Below the pieces are notes generated by a model, which worked only from the letters and a program-made list of their open reading frames with translations, did no database searches and had not been told where the DNA came from. From a virus (taxonomy: Duplodnaviria > Heunggongvirae > Uroviricota > Caudoviricetes), in IMG/VR virus record IMGVR_UViG_2645727867_000003: a stretch of DNA of 53,137 bases; one strand, given 5' to 3'. A program made the translations under genes and the position numbers. Shown piece after piece: positions 42,437 to 53,137 of the stretch; positions within the stretch are counted from its first letter, which is position 1; every line of letters starts with the position of its first letter.

Positions 42437-42988
42437 TTAAAGCTCCATTAATTTTCCGGCCAGTTCATCTCGTGGCATTACCAGCCATCCGCGCGATTTA
42501 AGCAAAGCCAGGGCTTCTTCAACCGTCACCAGCTGGCCTGGCGCATAACTTCGGATGAAGGCGGTTTTATCGTCACGGATCGCCAGGTGAAAATCGATAT
42601 TCATTTTTCCCATAGCCCGCTCTTTCTCGTACTGGTTGAAGTAACTGTCTTCGAGTTTTTCGAATACTTCCCACGCCTGATCGGTTTCGAGCATTTTTGC
42701 ATGACGGGCTGCTCCGCGTTCTGTCCAGAGGATGAGAGTGCGGGTTTTGGGAGAAATTTTCACCTCATTTTGCGACTCGTTTAAAACTAGTCGCAAATTT
42801 TTGAGCTCATCACCAACAGCTTTAAAGAAGTGTTTTCCCTCAATAAATCGAGATTTATTTTCATGGTGATTCTGCTGTATACGGATTGCTTCTGTTCCGT
42901 AAAGGCGGGCGAGTAACTCAGTTGTGATTACAGGAATCTGGTTATAAGTGACAGGGGAAAGGTTTTTGACAGTAACTTGAGTCGTCAT
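42437..42988 (-). CDS. ORF6N-domain antirepressor-like protein (intact paralog)
   Basis: N-terminal …ITTELLARLYGTE…RFIEGKHFFKAVGDELK… ORF6N-like. 183 aa. Confidence 0.6.
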   Translation of the reverse strand: MTTQVTVKNLSPVTYNQIPVITTELLARLYGTEAIRIQQNHHENKSRFIEGKHFFKAVGDELKNLRLVLNESQNEVKISPKTRTLILWTERGAARHAKMLETDQAWEVFEKLEDSYFNQYEKERAMGKMNIDFHLAIRDDKTAFIRSYAPGQLVTVEEALALLKSRGWLVMPRDELAGKLMEL

Positions 42989-43329
42989 GATAACGCCCTC
43001 TGGTTGATGAATTTAACTATCACCACCTTCAGGTCTCAATCATCAGGTGGCGAGACGTACAGGGTTGAGACTACCGGATCAACCAACCGGCCAGCCTTTC
43101 GGCTGCCCCATACGCCTCACCATAATTCAGATGTGCGTGCGCATACGACAATAAAAAACACGCTCGCGGCGTGTGTCTGTCGCGGTTGAATATCCGGGGT
43201 CTCAATCCCGACGGTCAACTCGACCGTGCGGTGAATATAGCCCCGGATTAGTAATTACGTCAACCCCAGCGGCAAATCGAATAAACCACCAGCGCTACCG
43301 CCATTGCAACTCCTGCCGTTACGAATGCC

Positions 43330-46886: not shown

Positions 46887-47294
46887 ATGGATACAAAAAA
46901 TTTAACCATTGGCGAACGCATTAGACATCGCCGAAAAAACCTCAAATACACCCAAAGGTCTCTTGCTAAAGCCCTGAAAATTTCTCATGTATCGGTTTCA
47001 CAATGGGAACGGGATGTTAGCGAACCTACAGGGAAGAATCTTTTTGCCCTCAGCAACGTACTGCAGTGCTCGCCAACATGGATTCTATTTGGCGATGAAG
47101 ACAAGCAGCCATCACCACCTATTGAGGAGCCAGTTGCTCTATCCCCCAAAGAACATGAGCTCCTTGAGCTTTTTAATGCATTGCCTGAATCAGAACAGGA
47201 TGCTCAGCTCACCGAGATGCGCGCCCGAGTAAAAAATTTCAACAAACTCTTTGAAGAGTTATTAAAAGCCCGTCAACGAACAAACAAAAGATAA
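46887..47294 (+). CDS. dicA: DicA-like CI-type repressor (XRE HTH)
   Basis: MDTKNLTIGERIRHRRKNLKYTQRSLAKALKISHVSVSQWER… 135 aa, near-identical to E. coli DicA as recalled. Confidence 0.9.
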   Translation: MDTKNLTIGERIRHRRKNLKYTQRSLAKALKISHVSVSQWERDVSEPTGKNLFALSNVLQCSPTWILFGDEDKQPSPPIEEPVALSPKEHELLELFNALPESEQDAQLTEMRARVKNFNKLFEELLKARQRTNKR

Positions 47295-47458
47295 CGCAAT
47301 CAATGCGTTATCTTTTTGGCTGACAAAAATGTTAGCCATGGCAAACAAAACACTTGACCGAACTGTTAGCCATGACTAATCTTGCTTACATCAAGACACC
47401 GCACGGTGTTCTCAGCAAACAGTTCCGCTACCCGGCGTTAAGGGCAAATGAGGTCAAC

Positions 47459-47611
47459 ATGGATACACTCAATCTTGGCAACAACGAATCTCTGGTATGC
47501 GGTGTGTTCCCTAACCAGGACGGCACGTTTACCGCGATGACATATACCAGAAGCAAAACGTTTAAAACTGAAGCTGGCGCGCATCGCTGGTTAGCCAGAA
47601 ACACTGACTGA
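47459..47611 (+). CDS. ydfA: YdfA-like small protein
   Basis: MDTLNLGNNESLVCGVFPNQDGTFTAMTYTRSKTFKTEAGAHRWLARNTD. Position after dicA as in Qin. Confidence 0.55.
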   Translation: MDTLNLGNNESLVCGVFPNQDGTFTAMTYTRSKTFKTEAGAHRWLARNTD

Positions 47612-47991
47612 TGAGGTTGACGATGGAATTTAAAGATTTACCAGTACCATTCCAGGATATGGCAGCGAATATAGTTCGTTCTCAACTGGCGACTCTTGAC
47701 CTGAGTACCGTAGAAAAAGAAACCATCGACAATATATCCCATAATGTGCGTAATGCCTTTATCAAGCTGTACGAAGAGAAGCTGAGTTCTGAAAACAAAG
47801 ATTATTCACCTAAATTCACCCCACCCCCAGGTGGAGTGAGTGAGATTTATCATGAAACAATGGTTAAAGCACTACGTATGCAAATAGCCGAACTTGAACA
47901 TAAATTAAATTTAGTTAGTAAGTGCCAAAATCAGCACAAGGCAAAAGGGTTGCACTTTCATCATAAGGGCAAACAAAAATGTGAGCATTAA
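47611..47991 (+). CDS. hypothetical protein (126 aa) in the repressor operon
   Basis: ORF directly after the ydfA-like gene. No recognisable domain. Confidence 0.4.
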   Translation: MRLTMEFKDLPVPFQDMAANIVRSQLATLDLSTVEKETIDNISHNVRNAFIKLYEEKLSSENKDYSPKFTPPPGGVSEIYHETMVKALRMQIAELEHKLNLVSKCQNQHKAKGLHFHHKGKQKCEH

Positions 47992-48217
47992 CACCAACTG
48001 AATTAGCAACAGAAAAGGTTTGTTCAAGTATTTGATTCGAATTGAGCGTTGACTGAATAACGTATGCCCCTGGCAACAATTTATATTCAACGTCACCTTC
48101 ATTAATCATCCTGGAGTATTTAAAATTTGGCATCAGAGTCTCGAACTTTTTCTCCTGTTCCATTGTTGCTTCAAATAACTGCACATGAACATAATATCGA
48201 TTTGATTTAGAGTGCAT
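47915..48217 (-). CDS. hypothetical protein (100 aa), convergent with the repressor operon
   Basis: SD GGAGGAT 5 nt before the ATG at 48217. AT-rich. Confidence 0.4.
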   Translation of the reverse strand: MHSKSNRYYVHVQLFEATMEQEKKFETLMPNFKYSRMINEGDVEYKLLPGAYVIQSTLNSNQILEQTFSVANSVGVNAHIFVCPYDESATLLPCADFGTY

Positions 48218-49244
48218 TTTATCCTCCATAGAGGTTCTGGGTTAAAAATGGAGACCAACACGCTGTCACGTGTGGTCGTGCGCCGGACACGGATAAGAAT
48301 CCGGCACTGACAGTTTACTGAAAGAACATATCCCTGAAAAGTCAGGGCATAACACGAAAGCGCACGGCGAAGTTAGTCTCTCTGTACAGGTCGTCGTTAA
48401 ATTTAATTCGATCGTGCGCTTCCGGTTGTGGCAATCCGCGAAATGGCGCGGCGGTAAGTATGGCTGGGGCTTCCTCCATTACTCCAGAAAATGCACCGGG
48501 TTGTCAGGTTGACCATACGCCTGAGTGACAACACCGCCACAACAATCTCTGTTATCACTTTTCTGGTGATTCGGCGGAAATGGATATCCGCCATTTTTAA
48601 AGTGTATTTTGTGATGCGGTGAATGCGGCTAAGCGCACGCGGAACAGTTAAAACAAGCGGTCTTTTACTGGCGTAACAGACATCAACTAACAATCCGGCG
48701 TTAATTGTTAACTGGTTAACGTCACCTGGAGGCACCAGACACCACATCACAAAATTCATTGTTGAGGACGCGATAATGGAAACGTCACTACCAAACGTTA
48801 ATACGTCTGAAGGGTGTTTTAATATTGGTATTCTGCTCAGTAACCGGGAGTTTACTGAGGACGCCATCAGGATGAGAAAATATGAGCCTTATCTTCTCAA
48901 TGATAATTCCATACTCTCCAGAATTGCCCTTCTTGAACTTGGCATTTTCGGAGGGCAGCAGTGAGTTCAGCGTTTGCACTGATGATGACGGTTTTTCTGA
49001 TAACAGGTGAGCCACAGAATGTGATTACCGGAATTTATGCCAGTAAAGAATCCTGCCATCAGGCAAGAGACGAGCAAAAAATTTCCGGTGAATGTCTCCC
49101 GTTAAACAAAGTATCGCTGTACCTGAATAACGAAATACCGGCTGGATAACCCACCAGCCATATTAACGCCATACCAACGGATTAAAAATGCCAGCAATGG
49201 CAGGGATTCGTTCACCCTGAAATCTGTAATGAGGTTTAAACACA

Positions 49245-51716
49245 ATGAGTAAAATATTTATTTGCGCCGCCATTCCTGACGAACAGGCAATAAAAAACGA
49301 GGGCGCTGTTGCTGTGGCCACTGCCATTGAAGCCGGTGATGAACGTCGCGCCCGCGCAAAATTTCACTGGCAATTCCTTGAACATTATCCGGCTGCTCAG
49401 GACTGCGCTTATAAATTTCTTGTCTGTGAGGATAAACCCGGTACACCCCGCCCAGCCCTCGACTCCTGGGATGCTGAATATATGCTGGAAAACCGCTGGG
49501 ATGAGGCGTCTGCTTCCTTTGTCCCGGTCGAACCTGAATCAGATCCGATGAACGTCACTTTTGACAAGCTGGCCCCTGAAGTACAGAACGCTGTCATGGT
49601 TAAGTTCGATACATGTGAAAACATCACCGTTGATATGGTGATTAGCGCACAGGAATTGTTGCAGGAAGACATGGCAACCTTCGACGGACATATCGTGGAA
49701 GCTTTGATGAAAATGCCAGAAGTTAACGCCATGTATCCGGAGCTTAAGCTGTATGCCATCGGGTGGGTTAAGCATAAATGTAAGCCTAGTGCCAAATGGC
49801 CAGAAATTCAGGCAGAGATGCGCACCTGGAAAAAACGTCGCGAAGCAGAACGAAAAGAAACCGGGAAACATACTTCTGTTGTTGAGCTGGCCCGCGCCAG
49901 AGTCAACCAACAGCACACTGAAAACTCAGCAGCAAAAATCAACCCTGTCACTACTGCCATTCGTCGCGAATACAAGCAGACATGGAAAACCCTGGATGAA
50001 GAGCTGGCTTACGCTCTCTGGCCTGGTGATATTGATGCCGGAAACATTGACGGTACCATCCATCGCTGGGCTAAAAATGAGGTTATCGACAAGGATCGCG
50101 AAGACTGGAAGCGTATCTCTGCATCAATGCGCAAACAGCCTGATGCGCTTCGCTATGACCGTCAGACTATTTTTGGCCTTGTTCGTGAGCGCCCGATCGA
50201 CATTCACAAAGATCCCGTTGCACTGAACAAATACATCAGCGAATACCTGACGACAAAGGGCGTGTTTGAACATGAAGAAACAGACCAGAGCTCTGCTGAT
50301 GCTATCCTGTCGTCAGCAGCACAAACTGATCCAGTGGAGACGGCGGAATCCAATTCTCAAAAAAATGAAATCCTGGTGGAAGCTGAACCATCTGTAGAGC
50401 GTGAAGGACCGTTTTATTTCGTCTTTACCGATAAGGACGGGGAAAAATACGGCAGGGCAAACAAACTTTCTGGCCTGGACAAGGCGCTGGCTGCCGGTGG
50501 TACCGAAATCTCAAAAGAAGAATATTTTGCCCGAAAAAATGGCACATATACGGGCTTACAGCAAAATACAGATACCGCAGAAGATTCAGAACAACCAGAG
50601 CCGGTAAAAGTTACCGCTGACGAAGTAAACAAAATTATGCAGGCAGCCAATATCAGCCAGCCTGACACCGATAAATTGCTTGCTGCATCACGTGGTGAAT
50701 TTGTTGAAGGGATTAGCGACCCGAATGATCCGAAATGGGTTAAGGGGATTGAAACCCGCGATTCTGTGAACCAGAACCAGCCCGAATCGGAACAAAACGA
50801 CCAGAAAGCGGAACAAAACAGTCCAAATGCGTTACAAAACGAGCCAGAAACGAAACTGCCTGAACCAGAAGTGCAACAAGAACCGGAAAAAGTTTGCACC
50901 GCATGCGGTCAGACCGGTGGCGGCAACTGTCCTGACTGTGGTGCGGTGATGGGGAACGCAACCAACCAGGAAACATTCGATGAAGAGAATCAGGCTGAAG
51001 CTCAGGAAAATGATCCGGAGGAAATGGAAGGCACTGAACATCTGCACAAGGAGAACACTGTCAGCGATCAGTATCACGCCAGCGATAATAAAACTGGCGA
51101 GACAGCAAATCCCTTAATTAAAGTGAACGGTCATCATGAAATCACATCCACCAGCAGGTTGTGGCACCATCTGATGATTGACCTTGAAACAATGGGAAAA
51201 AATCCTGATGCGCCAATAAACGCTATAGCCGGTAAGTTTTTTGATCCGGCAACCGGAGAGATGGGGCCAGAATTCAGCAAAACTATCGATCTGGAAACCG
51301 CAGGCGGGGTCATCGATCGGGGCACCATTAAGTGGTGGCTGAAACAGTCACGCGAAGCACAATCCGCCATTCTGACCGATGAAATCCCGTTGGATGATGC
51401 ACTGCTGCAATTCCGGGAATTTATCGACGAAAACTCCGGTGAATTTTTTGTTCAGGTCTGGGGTAACGGTGCAACTTTCGACAACGTGATTTTACGCCGT
51501 TCATATGAACGGCAGGGGATCCCCTGCCCGTGGCGTTACACCAATGATCGCGATGTAAGAACGATGGTTGCTCTGGGACTGGTGATGGATTTCGACGCAA
51601 GAACGACTATTCCATTCGAAGGTGAACGCCATAACGCGCTGCACGATGCGCGTTACCAGGCAAAATACGTTTCAGCCATCTGGCAAAAACTGATCCCGAG
51701 TCAGGCTGATTTTTAA
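49245..51716 (+). CDS. large early protein with C-terminal DnaQ-like (DEDDh) 3'-5' exonuclease domain and central Cys4 zinc ribbon
   Basis: C-terminal motifs MIDLETMG (Exo I), VWGNGATFD (Exo II), HNALHDARY (Exo III); CTACGQ…CPDCG zinc ribbon; acidic linker. Confidence 0.7.
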   Translation: MSKIFICAAIPDEQAIKNEGAVAVATAIEAGDERRARAKFHWQFLEHYPAAQDCAYKFLVCEDKPGTPRPALDSWDAEYMLENRWDEASASFVPVEPESDPMNVTFDKLAPEVQNAVMVKFDTCENITVDMVISAQELLQEDMATFDGHIVEALMKMPEVNAMYPELKLYAIGWVKHKCKPSAKWPEIQAEMRTWKKRREAERKETGKHTSVVELARARVNQQHTENSAAKINPVTTAIRREYKQTWKTLDEELAYALWPGDIDAGNIDGTIHRWAKNEVIDKDREDWKRISASMRKQPDALRYDRQTIFGLVRERPIDIHKDPVALNKYISEYLTTKGVFEHEETDQSSADAILSSAAQTDPVETAESNSQKNEILVEAEPSVEREGPFYFVFTDKDGEKYGRANKLSGLDKALAAGGTEISKEEYFARKNGTYTGLQQNTDTAEDSEQPEPVKVTADEVNKIMQAANISQPDTDKLLAASRGEFVEGISDPNDPKWVKGIETRDSVNQNQPESEQNDQKAEQNSPNALQNEPETKLPEPEVQQEPEKVCTACGQTGGGNCPDCGAVMGNATNQETFDEENQAEAQENDPEEMEGTEHLHKENTVSDQYHASDNKTGETANPLIKVNGHHEITSTSRLWHHLMIDLETMGKNPDAPINAIAGKFFDPATGEMGPEFSKTIDLETAGGVIDRGTIKWWLKQSREAQSAILTDEIPLDDALLQFREFIDENSGEFFVQVWGNGATFDNVILRRSYERQGIPCPWRYTNDRDVRTMVALGLVMDFDARTTIPFEGERHNALHDARYQAKYVSAIWQKLIPSQADF

Positions 51717-51780: not shown

Positions 51781-52029
51781 ATGGCAAGACTTATTCTGCT
51801 CACTGAGTGGGCAAAAGAGGAATTCAGTGAACCGGTCCCTACTCCGGGCACGTTAAGTAAATACGCTAAAGCCGGAATGATATTTCCTCTCCCCAAAAAA
51901 GTTGGAAGACACTGGCGAGTGGATCCTCGAGCTCGCTTTGTCGGAATGGTAAACAAGCCGGAAGTGATCGCCACAGATCACCCTGCTTTGAAGAGGATAC
52001 TGGAAGATGGCGCGCCCACGAAAATATAA
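51781..52029 (+). CDS. xis: excisionase
   Basis: MARLILLTEWAKEEFSEPVPTPGTLSKYAKAGMIFP… Xis-like winged helix. Overlaps the int start. Confidence 0.75.
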   Translation: MARLILLTEWAKEEFSEPVPTPGTLSKYAKAGMIFPLPKKVGRHWRVDPRARFVGMVNKPEVIATDHPALKRILEDGAPTKI

Positions 52030-53137
52030 AACTGAAGTTCCGGGATTATCTCCGTATTTTGACAAAAGAAATAACAAAGTTTACTGGCGTTACAGGCATC
52101 CCATAACAGGAAAAAATCACGGGCTCGGCAGTATTGACCAGAAACAGGCAGAAGCTATTGCAGCAGAAGCGAACAGCCGTCTTGCCAGGCAACAAATGGA
52201 ACAAATGCTCACTCTGCAGGAGAAAATTATTCGTGATACCGGTGGTTCATCAACCGTTTCTGTTTTTCTGAATAGTTACCGAAAAATTCAACAGGAAAGA
52301 TATGAAAACGGAGAGATCAAACTCAACACACTGAAACAGAAAGCATCCCCTCTCAGGGTATTTGATGAACGTTTTGGTACCAGACCATTAGATGCCATAA
52401 CCGTAAAAGATGTGGTATCGGTGCTGGAAGATTACAAGGCAAAAGGACATAACAGAATGGGACAAATTTTCAGGAAAGTACTGATTGATGTTTTCCGGGA
52501 GGCCCAGCAAACGGGCGATGTCCCGCCTGGCTTTAACCCTGCAGAATCGGCAAAAAAACCACAGGTACGGATATCACGGCAACGACTGACCTTTGATGAG
52601 TGGATGATGATTTATAATGCAGCGGAAAAGGATGGCTACTTTTTACAGCGTGGTATGCTGCTGGCACTGATGACAGGCCAGCGCCTTTCAGATATTTGCA
52701 AAATGAAATTTTCGGATATCAGGGATGGTTATCTTCATGTCGAACAGCAAAAAACAGGAACCCGGATTGCCATCCCTCTGGCTCTGCGTTGCGATAAATT
52801 AAATCTCACCCTGGATGATGTGGTGTCATCCTGTCGCGATTGCGTTCTTAGTCCGTGGCTATTGCACCACCATCATGCTAAAGGGACAGCTAAGCGCGGC
52901 GGGATGGTTAAGCCAGCAACGTTGACAGTTGCATTTAAAAAAGCCCGGGATTCTGTGGATTACAACTGGCGCGCTAATGGCACTCCACCCTCTTTCCATG
53001 AGCAGAGATCTTTATCAGAGCGATTGTTCAGGGAGCAGGGAATTGATACCCAAATTTTGCTGGGTCATTCGAATCAAAAAATGACCGATATTTACAACGA
53101 TGTACGCGGTAAAGAGTGGAAAAAACTGGTCATTTGA
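52007..53137 (+). CDS. int: tyrosine integrase (lambda Int family)
   Basis: 376 aa. C-terminal catalytic region with …LLGHSN…MTDIYN… and conserved R/H/Y context. Stop at the window end. Confidence 0.9.
   Translation: MARPRKYKTEVPGLSPYFDKRNNKVYWRYRHPITGKNHGLGSIDQKQAEAIAAEANSRLARQQMEQMLTLQEKIIRDTGGSSTVSVFLNSYRKIQQERYENGEIKLNTLKQKASPLRVFDERFGTRPLDAITVKDVVSVLEDYKAKGHNRMGQIFRKVLIDVFREAQQTGDVPPGFNPAESAKKPQVRISRQRLTFDEWMMIYNAAEKDGYFLQRGMLLALMTGQRLSDICKMKFSDIRDGYLHVEQQKTGTRIAIPLALRCDKLNLTLDDVVSSCRDCVLSPWLLHHHHAKGTAKRGGMVKPATLTVAFKKARDSVDYNWRANGTPPSFHEQRSLSERLFREQGIDTQILLGHSNQKMTDIYNDVRGKEWKKLVI

What the first reader, a model, noticed from the sequence alone, without database searches (positions are those of the whole stretch)
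49245..51716. Early-left operon carries a large DEDDh exonuclease fusion and no recognisable single-strand annealing partner
The 823-aa protein ends in a DnaQ-type 3'-5' exonuclease domain (Exo I, II and III motifs) after a zinc ribbon and an acidic linker. The N-terminal ~550 aa are unassigned. No Red-beta/RecT/Erf-like gene was seen between the repressor and xis–int. This differs from the canonical lambda exo/bet pair and may be a distinct recombination or anti-restriction function.
Basis: partly seen in the sequence, partly recalled or inferred. Interest (0 to 1): 0.45.

Follow-up and report, generated by a model that had tools for sequence, protein, structure and literature searches.

The report
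Intact YdfE: RecE scaffold, DEDDh exonuclease
The 823-aa gene is real and is the intact form of the E. coli K-12 pseudogene ydfE: the non-catalytic body of the RecE recombination exonuclease carrying a DexA-type 3'-5' exonuclease instead of RecE's 5'-3' nuclease, with no annealing partner; it is very common in E. coli prophages and has never been studied.

Summary
ORF 49245-51716 (+) encodes 823 aa. It ends in a Pfam Rv2179c-like/DexA-like DEDDh domain (E 2e-61) with catalytic residues D646, E648, D746, H796 and D801. These are conserved in 120/120 close homologues and in distant phage homologues. A CxxC-x7-CxxC ribbon and an acidic linker precede the domain. No RecT, Redβ, Erf or Rad52-type gene is in the operon or elsewhere in the prophage.

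The arrangement is not rare. The protein is identical to annotated E. coli "exonuclease" proteins (PHROG 2082; Pfam YdfE_N + YdfE_C + Rv2179c-like). Residues 1-256 are 90% identical to the IS2-truncated K-12 Qin pseudogene ydfE. DNA for the DEDDh domain occurs in 4040 of 5426 complete E. coli genomes. The RecE nuclease occurs in 1730, each listed record with recT.

The most likely function is annealase-independent 3'-end processing of DNA during lytic growth. An EcD/HREX-like anti-phage nuclease is the main rival. Biochemistry is untested.

The parts
49245..51716 (+). 823-aa gene: intact YdfE-type protein (RecE-family scaffold + DEDDh exonuclease)
   Evidence: ORF. 100% identical to WP_021293386.1 'exonuclease'. 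PHROG 2082 matched over 823/823 positions. Pfam YdfE_N, YdfE_C and Rv2179c-like.
49245..49859 (+). N-terminal module, residues 1-205: D1 alpha/beta (1-100) and D2 helical (105-205). This is the part that survives in the K-12 pseudogene ydfE.
   Evidence: 90% identity to K-12 ydfE over residues 1-256. AlphaFold2 pLDDT is mostly above 90. No PDB match by Foldseek. Weak hhalign link of D1 to the RecE N-terminus (probability 62%, E 8e-5).
49983..50264 (+). D3 helical domain, residues 247-340, shared with RecE
   Evidence: BLASTP to RecE 294-351, E 4e-6. Confident AlphaFold2 helices.
50406..50549 (+). D4 small beta-beta-alpha domain, residues 388-435 (GPFYF...GRANK...EISxEEY)
   Evidence: pLDDT 94-97. 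Conserved in the scaffold-Rad52-like fusions but absent from K-12 RecE.
50652..50756 (+). Conserved peptide DKLLAASRGEFVEGISDPNDPKWVKGIETRD, residues 470-504
   Evidence: Lies within the 65%-identical stretch shared with RecE 454-591. Also present in the DEDDh-type homologues and in P0131.
50889..50942 (+). CxxC-x7-CxxC zinc ribbon, residues 549-566
   Evidence: C551, C554, C562 and C565. Conserved in RecE. Missing in homologues P0123, P0133, P0237 and P0267.
50943..51119 (+). Acidic linker, residues 567-625. Homology with RecE ends here.
   Evidence: 15 D/E against 2 K/R. The RecE alignment stops at 625/591.
51165..51683 (+). DEDDh 3'-5' exonuclease domain (Rv2179c-like / DexA-like), residues 641-813
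   Evidence: Pfam E 2.3e-61. PDB 8kel 'Exodeoxyribonuclease', E 7e-6; the paper describing the T4 DexA crystal structures is PMC12153337. Catalytic residues conserved.
46887..47294 (+). DicA-type repressor at the head of the early-left operon
   Evidence: Annotated dicA. Pfam HTH_3.
48560..48593 (+). Shortened DicF-like RNA with its terminator hairpin
   Evidence: Alignment to K-12 and phage Tritos dicF. Terminator-like site at 48573-48592.
48776..49149 (+). dicB (48776-48964) and the ydfD-like DUF1482 gene (48961-49149), directly upstream of the exonuclease gene
51781..53137 (+). Excisionase (51781-52029) and integrase (52007-53137), directly downstream. There is no room for an annealase gene.
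   Evidence: Pfam Exc, Arm-DNA-bind_1 and Phage_integrase. ompW flanks the prophage.

Best explanation
The gene encodes the intact form of YdfE. It is a modular protein. The body (residues ~1-625) belongs to the same family as the functionally unassigned N-terminal ~600 aa of RecE. The catalytic end is a DexA/Rv2179c-type DEDDh 3'->5' exonuclease, in place of RecE's PD-(D/E)XK 5'->3' nuclease.

Inferred, not shown:
- It is transcribed as the last gene of the DicA-repressed early-left operon, so it would be made after induction or infection rather than in the lysogen.
- The scaffold brings the nuclease to DNA ends or to a common partner.
- The nuclease trims 3' ends of DNA (ssDNA tails, flaps or duplex ends) during phage DNA replication or repair.
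- It does this without a phage annealase, leaving pairing to host functions or to spontaneous annealing. This resembles the contribution of T4 DexA to double-strand-break repair in intron homing.

Shown here: domain composition, catalytic motif conservation, homology to RecE, absence of an annealase, and the swapping of C-terminal modules on one scaffold.
For: Family assignment and catalytic residues:
- Pfam Rv2179c-like, E 2e-61.
- DEDDh residues invariant in distant homologues and in 120/120 close ones.

Scaffold homology with RecE:
- 65% identity over residues 474-625, plus domain D3.
- Homology ends exactly at the start of the catalytic domain.

The same scaffolds carry three different C-termini:
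- DEDDh: P0121 and P0123; P0129 combines the RecE N-terminus with DEDDh.
- RecE nuclease: P0139, P0190, P0244.
- A Rad52-like predicted fold: P0131, P0134 and others, P0225, and ZF40 gp07.
- This ties the scaffold to DNA-end recombination functions.

Position and distribution:
- The gene sits where recE-recT sits in Rac, directly upstream of xis-int.
- In 9 of 12 fused loci from other species, an integrase homologue starts 179-291 nt downstream.
- No RecT or Rad52-like gene lies within 9 kb of any of the 75 loci fetched.
- In the eight RecE-nuclease records listed, recT lies at the match.

Literature:
- The RecE N-terminal domain has no known function, but the full-length protein enhances linear-linear recombination (review PMC11611040).
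- T4 DexA is a 3'-5' DNA exonuclease that contributes to intron homing (PMC12153337).

The prophage also keeps a RusA resolvase.
Against: - No biochemical or genetic data exist for this protein. A full-text search for ydfE found 19 papers, none a functional study.
- A 3'->5' polarity does not make the 3' tails used by RecA or by annealases, so the recombination logic is not the RecET one.
- The domain family also includes an RNA exonuclease (the Pfam family is named for the 3'-5' exoribonuclease Rv2179c) and a defence nuclease (EcD).
- The scaffold has no detectable structural relative in the PDB, so its targeting role is inferred only from domain architecture.
- Expression timing is inferred from operon position and from what is known of Qin and Rac. 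It was not measured.
Confidence: 0.4

Rival explanations
1. Inter-phage defence nuclease of the HREX/EcD kind. The DEDDh domain would degrade the modified (5hmC-type) DNA of superinfecting T-even-like phages while sparing unmodified DNA.
For: - PMC12153337 reports that the E. coli DexA homologue EcD digests T4 DNA, does not digest unmodified dsDNA, and protects cells from T4.
- An EcD-like 189-aa protein (begins MIDTET as the EcD forward primer does, Ala at position 78), found on viral contigs, is 39% identical to residues 644-816, E 6e-36.
- The D169-equivalent acidic residue is present (D782).
Against: - At the position of DexA W152, which is needed for cutting T4 DNA, this protein has T766. 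Close homologues have T or Y.
- At the position of D90, which EcD lacks, it has D718.
- No PADLOC defence model matches.
- The gene is the distal gene of a repressor-controlled lytic operon, and no promoter-like site was found on its strand.
- It is fused to the RecE-family scaffold, which EcD lacks.
Confidence: 0.2
2. Nucleotide scavenging. After induction the enzyme would degrade host or broken DNA from 3' ends to feed phage DNA synthesis. This is the other documented role of T4 DexA.
For: DexA's scavenging role is described in PMC12153337. The catalytic family is the same.
Against: - Temperate lambdoid phages are not known to depend on host-DNA breakdown (general knowledge).
- This role does not explain the 625-aa RecE-type scaffold.
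- It does not explain why the same scaffold carries a Rad52-like domain in other phages.
Confidence: 0.1
3. RNA-directed 3' exonuclease, for example trimming or degrading operon or host RNAs, as in the family's founding member Rv2179c.
For: The Pfam family is named '3'-5' exoribonuclease Rv2179c-like'. NCBI names many copies '3'-5' exoribonuclease'. The operon produces a processed small RNA, a DicF-like one.
Against: - The closest characterised relatives by sequence are DNA exonucleases: DexA in the PDB and EcD.
- The scaffold is shared with DNA recombination proteins.
Confidence: 0.1
4. A partner annealase exists but was missed. It could be a small or novel one among ORFs 47354-49149, or one supplied in trans by another prophage.
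For: Several upstream ORFs have no assigned function. E. coli genomes carry up to 7 copies of this gene and many prophages.
Against: - The upstream ORFs are DUF1391, a YdfB/C-like protein, DicB and a YdfD-like protein, of 50-126 aa, with no annealase hit in Pfam or PHROGs.
- No RecT or Rad52-like hit lies within 9 kb of any of the 75 loci from other species.
- A Pfam scan of ten upstream same-strand ORFs from seven of those loci found no annealase.
- Nothing was found elsewhere in the window.
Confidence: 0.07

Closest known systems
RecE (exonuclease VIII) of the Rac prophage, with RecT
   Same: - Same position in the early-left operon, next to xis-int.
- Homologous non-catalytic body: 65% identity over residues 474-625, including the zinc ribbon and the acidic linker, plus domain D3.
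- Some homologues even carry the RecE N-terminus (PF06630) joined to the DEDDh domain (P0129; loci).
   Different: - The catalytic domain is a DEDDh 3'-5' exonuclease, not the PD-(D/E)XK 5'-3' nuclease.
- It scores 265 bits against an NCBIfam RecE cut-off of 1269.
- There is no recT.
- The first ~205 residues are of the YdfE_N type, not Exonuc_VIII. The link between the two is weak.
T4 DexA (PDB 8kel/8ken) and the Rv2179c-like family (PF16473)
   Same: Same fold family and the same DEDDh catalytic residues. DexA is a 3'-5' DNA exonuclease used in homing recombination and in scavenging (PMC12153337).
   Different: - DexA and Rv2179c are stand-alone proteins of about 170-230 aa. Here the domain is the C-terminus of an 823-aa protein.
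- Identity to a T4-type DexA is 26%.
- DexA's surface insertions are absent.
EcD / HREX defence exonuclease of E. coli (PMC12153337)
   Same: Same domain family. 39% identity to an EcD-like protein. Catalytic residues are conserved.
   Different: - EcD is a stand-alone protein of about 190 aa.
- This protein has T766 where DexA and EcD have the Trp needed for 5hmC DNA.
- It has D718 where EcD has Ala.
- No defence phenotype was tested here.
K-12 Qin pseudogene ydfE
   Same: Residues 1-256 are 90% identical. The operon order is the same: dicA, ydfA-C, dicF, dicB, ydfD.
   Different: The K-12 copy is cut by IS2 after about 256 codons and has lost the RecE-like middle part and the exonuclease domain.
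Scaffold-Rad52-like fusions (Pectobacterium phage ZF40 gp07, Stenotrophomonas phage BUCT709; PHROG 2489 'exonuclease')
   Same: Same N-terminal scaffold, including D1-D4. Same operon position between repressor and integrase.
   Different: - It is followed by a Gp157/Gam-like gene.
- Its 'exonuclease' label appears to be carried over from the scaffold.

Membership tests
DEDDh exonucleases, Rv2179c-like / DexA-like (PF16473) | Full-length match to the family profile above the curated cut-off | tested here: met
   207 bits against a cut-off of 27, profile positions 1-177/177, E 2.3e-61.
DEDDh exonucleases, Rv2179c-like / DexA-like (PF16473) | Exo I DxE, Exo II D and Exo III H-x4-D catalytic residues present and conserved in homologues | tested here: met
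   D646, E648, D746, H796, D801. Invariant in 6 distant sequences. Present in 120/120 close homologues.
DEDDh exonucleases, Rv2179c-like / DexA-like (PF16473) | 3'-5' exonuclease activity, and its substrate (DNA or RNA) | not testable with these tools
   Needs a nuclease assay.
RecE (exodeoxyribonuclease VIII) | C-terminal PD-(D/E)XK lambda-Exo-like 5'-3' nuclease domain | tested here: not met
   The alignment with RecE stops at residue 625/591. NCBIfam RecE equivalog: 265 bits against a cut-off of 1269. The C-terminus is DEDDh.
RecE (exodeoxyribonuclease VIII) | Adjacent recT annealase gene | tested here: not met
   xis begins 65 nt after the stop codon. No RecT was found in the window.
RecE (exodeoxyribonuclease VIII) | Shared non-catalytic N-terminal and middle region | tested here: met
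   65% identity over residues 474-625. D3 at E 4e-6. For the first ~200 residues the link is only weak.
HREX / EcD defence exonuclease | Trp equivalent to DexA W152 and an acidic residue equivalent to D169 (5hmC recognition) | tested here: not met
   T766 at the W152 position; D782 at the D169 position. Residue definitions are from PMC12153337.
HREX / EcD defence exonuclease | Loss of the tetramer-forming Asp (DexA D90; Ala78 in EcD) | tested here: not met
   D718 occupies that position. 50 of 120 close homologues have D and 70 have V.
HREX / EcD defence exonuclease | Protection against T4 and selective digestion of 5hmC DNA | not testable with these tools
   Needs plaque assays and nuclease assays.
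YdfE family (Pfam YdfE_N PF27430 + YdfE_C PF27432; PHROG 2082) | End-to-end match to family members and to the K-12 ydfE remnant | tested here: met
   PHROG 2082 over 823/823 positions. Precomputed Pfam hits. 90% identity to ydfE.
Two-component phage recombinase (exonuclease + single-strand annealing protein) | An annealase of the Redβ/RecT/Erf/Rad52/Sak4/Gp2.5 kind encoded next to the exonuclease | tested here: not met
   None in the operon or the prophage. No RecT or Rad52-like gene near the homologous loci of other species, and no annealase Pfam hit in the ten upstream ORFs scanned.

The most novel reading that the evidence does not exclude
The RecE/YdfE N-terminal body would be a dedicated targeting platform for DNA ends, or for a replisome or host partner. 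Lambdoid phages would plug interchangeable end-processing modules onto it: a 5'-3' nuclease, a 3'-5' nuclease or a Rad52-like annealase. The DEDDh version, present in about three quarters of E. coli genomes, would then be a self-sufficient, annealase-independent recombination/repair or phage-versus-phage device. That would finally assign a function to RecE's enigmatic N-terminal ~600 residues.
Probability: 0.3. Interest if true: 0.65.

Novelty: new variant of a known kind. Interest (0 to 1): 0.45.

Why it matters
RecET is a workhorse of recombineering, yet about 600 residues of RecE have had no assigned function for decades (PMC11611040). This gene shows that the same body is used with a nuclease of opposite polarity and no annealase. 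In other phages the body carries a domain with a Rad52-like predicted fold.

The DEDDh version is more widespread in E. coli than RecE itself: 4040 against 1730 of 5426 complete genomes. It is missing from K-12 only because IS2 destroyed it.

That gives a clean experimental handle. One can swap modules on one scaffold, or add the intact gene back to K-12. This could show what the scaffold does, and whether the gene serves phage recombination or phage-phage conflict, as the related EcD nuclease suggests.

Tried and rejected
- Foldseek of the AlphaFold2 model of residues 1-470 against the PDB gave nothing (best E about 1; only generic ferredoxin-like hits for D1). No fold assignment is possible for the scaffold.
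- Sequence searches of the Rad52-like C-terminal domain against the PDB found nothing useful: phmmer, a profile search and Foldseek.
An alignment of the DEDDh fusions was used instead.
The alignment was rebuilt from library proteins.
- The first literature search (ydfE / Qin / exonuclease) returned only noise. 'Rv2179c + phage' gave nothing relevant. 'ydfE' alone gave 19 papers, none a functional study.
- Rfam found no DicF at gathering or E-value thresholds. A direct alignment showed a shortened dicF.
- PADLOC has no model that matches the protein.
- The idea that the minus-strand 154-aa ORF 48403-48867 is a gene was dropped. It has no hits and overlaps dicF and dicB.
- The idea of a decaying pseudogene was rejected. 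The frame is intact and the catalytic residues are conserved in 120/120 close homologues.
Full report
**Observation**

The window holds an 823-codon ORF at exactly 49245-51716 on the + strand. A GAGG ribosome-binding motif lies about 11 nt upstream.

Its C-terminus (residues 641-813) matches the whole Pfam profile PF16473, '3'-5' exoribonuclease Rv2179c-like', at E 2.3e-61. The best solved relative is 8kel/8ken, 'Exodeoxyribonuclease'. The paper that describes the T4 DexA crystal structures is PMC12153337.

The DEDDh residues are D646 and E648, D746, and H796 and D801. Their conservation was checked in three sets:
- They are invariant in an alignment with five distant phage homologues: Yersinia PY54 gp51, a Vibrio phage, Bacillus phage Bastille, a T4-like Acinetobacter phage DexA and a Pseudomonas phage.
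- They are present in 120 of 120 close E. coli cluster representatives.
- They are present in 58-65 of 66 homologues from other species.

A CxxC-x7-CxxC ribbon (C551, C554, C562, C565) comes before the domain. An acidic linker follows the ribbon, with 15 D/E against 2 K/R in residues 567-625.

**Surroundings**

The window is a complete lambdoid prophage inserted beside ompW. It is identical over the tested 4.8 kb to E. coli 94-3024 and O104:H21 genomes. It is of the kind called PPompW in EHEC.

The early-left operon is not lambda-like. It is collinear with the Qin cryptic prophage of K-12:
- a DicA-type repressor (46887-47294);
- a DUF1391/YdfA-like gene;
- a YdfB/C-like gene;
- a shortened DicF-like RNA;
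- dicB;
- a YdfD-like DUF1482 gene;
- the 823-aa gene;
- xis and int.

Residues 1-256 are 90% identical to the K-12 pseudogene ydfE, which IS2 truncates. The 823-aa protein is thus the intact YdfE. The same operon, with an 87%-identical gene, is found in Escherichia phage Tritos.

**How common it is**

The protein is annotated as 'exonuclease' or '3'-5' exoribonuclease' in very many E. coli records. One 90%-identity cluster alone was seen on at least 1000 contigs. It matches PHROG 2082 from end to end. A newer Pfam release covers the N-terminal part with YdfE_N (PF27430) and YdfE_C (PF27432).

DNA for the DEDDh domain occurs in 4040 of 5426 complete E. coli genomes, with up to 7 copies per genome. 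DNA for the RecE nuclease domain occurs in 1730, and recT lies at the match in each of the eight records listed. The arrangement is therefore the commonest 'exo' allele in E. coli prophages, not an oddity.

A full-text search for ydfE found 19 papers, none a functional study.

**The N-terminal 625 residues**

BLASTP against K-12 RecE aligns residues 262-625 with RecE 278-591. Residues 474-625 are 65% identical to RecE 454-591, and this stretch includes the zinc ribbon and the acidic linker. Homology ends where RecE's nuclease domain begins. [quoted passage not shown]

AlphaFold2 predicts four confident domains joined by disordered acidic segments (mean pLDDT 83):
- D1, residues 1-100, alpha/beta;
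- D2, residues 105-205, helical;
- D3, residues 247-340, helical;
- D4, residues 388-435, beta-beta-alpha.

Foldseek found no PDB relative for this model. A profile-profile comparison gives only a weak link between D1 and the RecE N-terminal domain (probability 62%).

**Module swapping**

An exhaustive HMMER search with residues 1-640 against 1.84 billion representatives found only 247 clusters. The full-length members share the scaffold but end in different ways:
- A DEDDh domain. This includes P0129, which joins the RecE N-terminus to DEDDh, and similar genes in Kluyvera, Pluralibacter, Phytobacter, Kosakonia and Leclercia.
- The RecE nuclease.
- A ~280-aa domain with the motif KKSLTDAxKKALSxLGFSADV, seen in P0131, P0134 and others, P0225 (RecE N-terminus plus this domain), Pectobacterium phage ZF40 gp07 and Stenotrophomonas phage BUCT709.
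- At least one further unassigned C-terminus (P0126).

The third domain was examined further:
- It is homologous to stand-alone phage proteins that sit next to Gp157/Gam-like genes. One of them is annotated 'RAD52-like annealing protein'.
- Pfam gave only sub-threshold Rad52_Rad22 hits.
- The model rests on a shallow alignment of 14 sequences.

One scaffold family is therefore fused to a 5'-3' nuclease, to a 3'-5' nuclease, or to a domain with an annealase-like fold. This ties the scaffold to the processing of DNA ends.

**No annealase**

Every ORF between the repressor and int was scanned against Pfam and PHROGs, and none resembles an annealase. The replication and nin-region proteins were scanned as well, with the same result. 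RefSeq annotates none in the prophage.

In species-representative genomes the result is the same:
- 12 fused DEDDh loci were found. In 9 of them an integrase homologue starts 179-291 nt after the gene.
- No RecT or Rad52-like hit lies within 9 kb of any of the 75 loci.
- Ten upstream same-strand ORFs from seven of these loci have no annealase domain.

The 'RecE nuclease + recT' cassette is thus replaced by a single DEDDh domain. Whatever the protein does, it does not need its own annealase.

**Function**

Nothing here tests activity. Three precedents exist for the domain family:
- T4 DexA is a 3'-5' DNA exonuclease that scavenges host DNA and helps intron homing, which is a double-strand-break repair event (PMC12153337).
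- The E. coli homologue EcD digests 5hmC T4 DNA but not unmodified DNA, and protects cells from T4.
- The family name comes from an RNA exonuclease, Rv2179c.

The EcD cloning primers led to a 189-aa EcD-like protein on viral contigs. It begins MIDTET and has Ala at position 78. It is 39% identical to residues 644-816 of the window protein.

The window protein differs from the EcD pattern:
- It has T766 where DexA has W152, a residue required for cutting T4 DNA.
- It has D718 where EcD has lost the tetramer-forming Asp.
- It keeps D782 at the D169 position.
- Among 120 close E. coli homologues, 50 have D at both 718 and 782, and 45-48 also share P715 and T766 with the window protein. The other ~70 have S715, V718, Y766 and G782.

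No PADLOC defence model matches the protein. The gene is the last gene of a repressor-controlled lytic operon, and no promoter-like site was found on its strand.

I therefore favour a lytic-cycle role in trimming the 3' ends of DNA, delivered by the RecE-type scaffold (confidence 0.4). The rivals are an EcD-like inter-phage nuclease (0.2), nucleotide scavenging (0.1), an RNA substrate (0.1) and a missed or trans-acting annealase (0.07).

**Verdict**

The feature is real and is described accurately. It belongs to a catalogued and very common, but experimentally untouched, family. It is best seen as a variant of the RecE kind, with opposite nuclease polarity and no annealase. Its interest lies in the combinatorial architecture, which offers a way into the long-unexplained RecE N-terminal region, and in its abundance in E. 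coli.

Noticed in passing
window 48560-48593 (+): A shortened DicF-like small RNA, about 34 nt against 53 nt in K-12 and phage Tritos. It has a 19-nt internal deletion but keeps the terminator hairpin (48573-48592). The Rfam DicF model does not detect it. A weak STnc100 match (25.6 bits, below gathering) overlaps 48591-48808.
   Followed up: partly
window 47915-48229 (-): A 104-aa ORF on the opposite strand matches PHROG 8894 (unknown function) at E 7e-34. It is not annotated in the identical RefSeq genome. It overlaps the 3' end of the + strand gene 47611-47991.
   Followed up: no
window 43043-43227 (-): Rfam hits above gathering to C4 antisense RNA (69 bits) and isrK (51 bits), next to an ORF6N-domain gene (42437-42988).
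   Followed up: no
[not shown]
   Followed up: yes
L098, L103, L113, L114, L116, L119 (IMG/VR viral contigs): A 189-aa stand-alone DEDDh protein begins MIDTET, as the published EcD forward primer does, and has Ala at position 78, as reported for EcD. The 'bacterial' HREX defence nuclease EcD therefore appears to be phage- or prophage-borne. The exact reverse-primer sequence was not found in these contigs.
   Followed up: partly
library protein P0267 (752 aa) and one genome locus: Some DEDDh fusions carry substitutions at catalytic positions: E648K plus D746A in P0267, and E648G in another representative. This may indicate inactive variants kept for a non-catalytic role, or simply decay.
   Followed up: no
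window residues 715, 718, 766, 782 of the 823-aa protein (nt 51387-51590): Close E. coli homologues show two linked residue patterns at surface positions of the exonuclease domain. The P715/D718/T766/D782 pattern, which the window protein has, occurs in 45-50 of 120. The S/V/Y/G pattern occurs in about 70 of 120. These positions correspond to DexA residues implicated in tetramer formation and 5hmC recognition.
   Followed up: partly
L020 2504-5178 (Vibrio phage VvAW1): A stand-alone homologue of the Rad52-like domain lies two genes upstream of a DEDD exonuclease of a different Pfam family (RNase_T, PF00929). This hints that 3'-5' exonucleases may accompany annealases in some phages.
   Followed up: no
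prophage structural region, from the RefSeq annotation of the identical genome (L003): The portal gene is annotated as frameshifted, and several genes are partial (a DNA methyltransferase fragment, a DUF1327 fragment). The prophage may therefore be defective although its early-left operon is intact.
   Followed up: no
L023 (contig labelled MAG: Veillonella parvula): The contig carries an Escherichia-type RecE-N + DEDDh gene together with YdaT-like and repressor-like genes. This is probably a binning contaminant in that metagenome-assembled genome.
   Followed up: no
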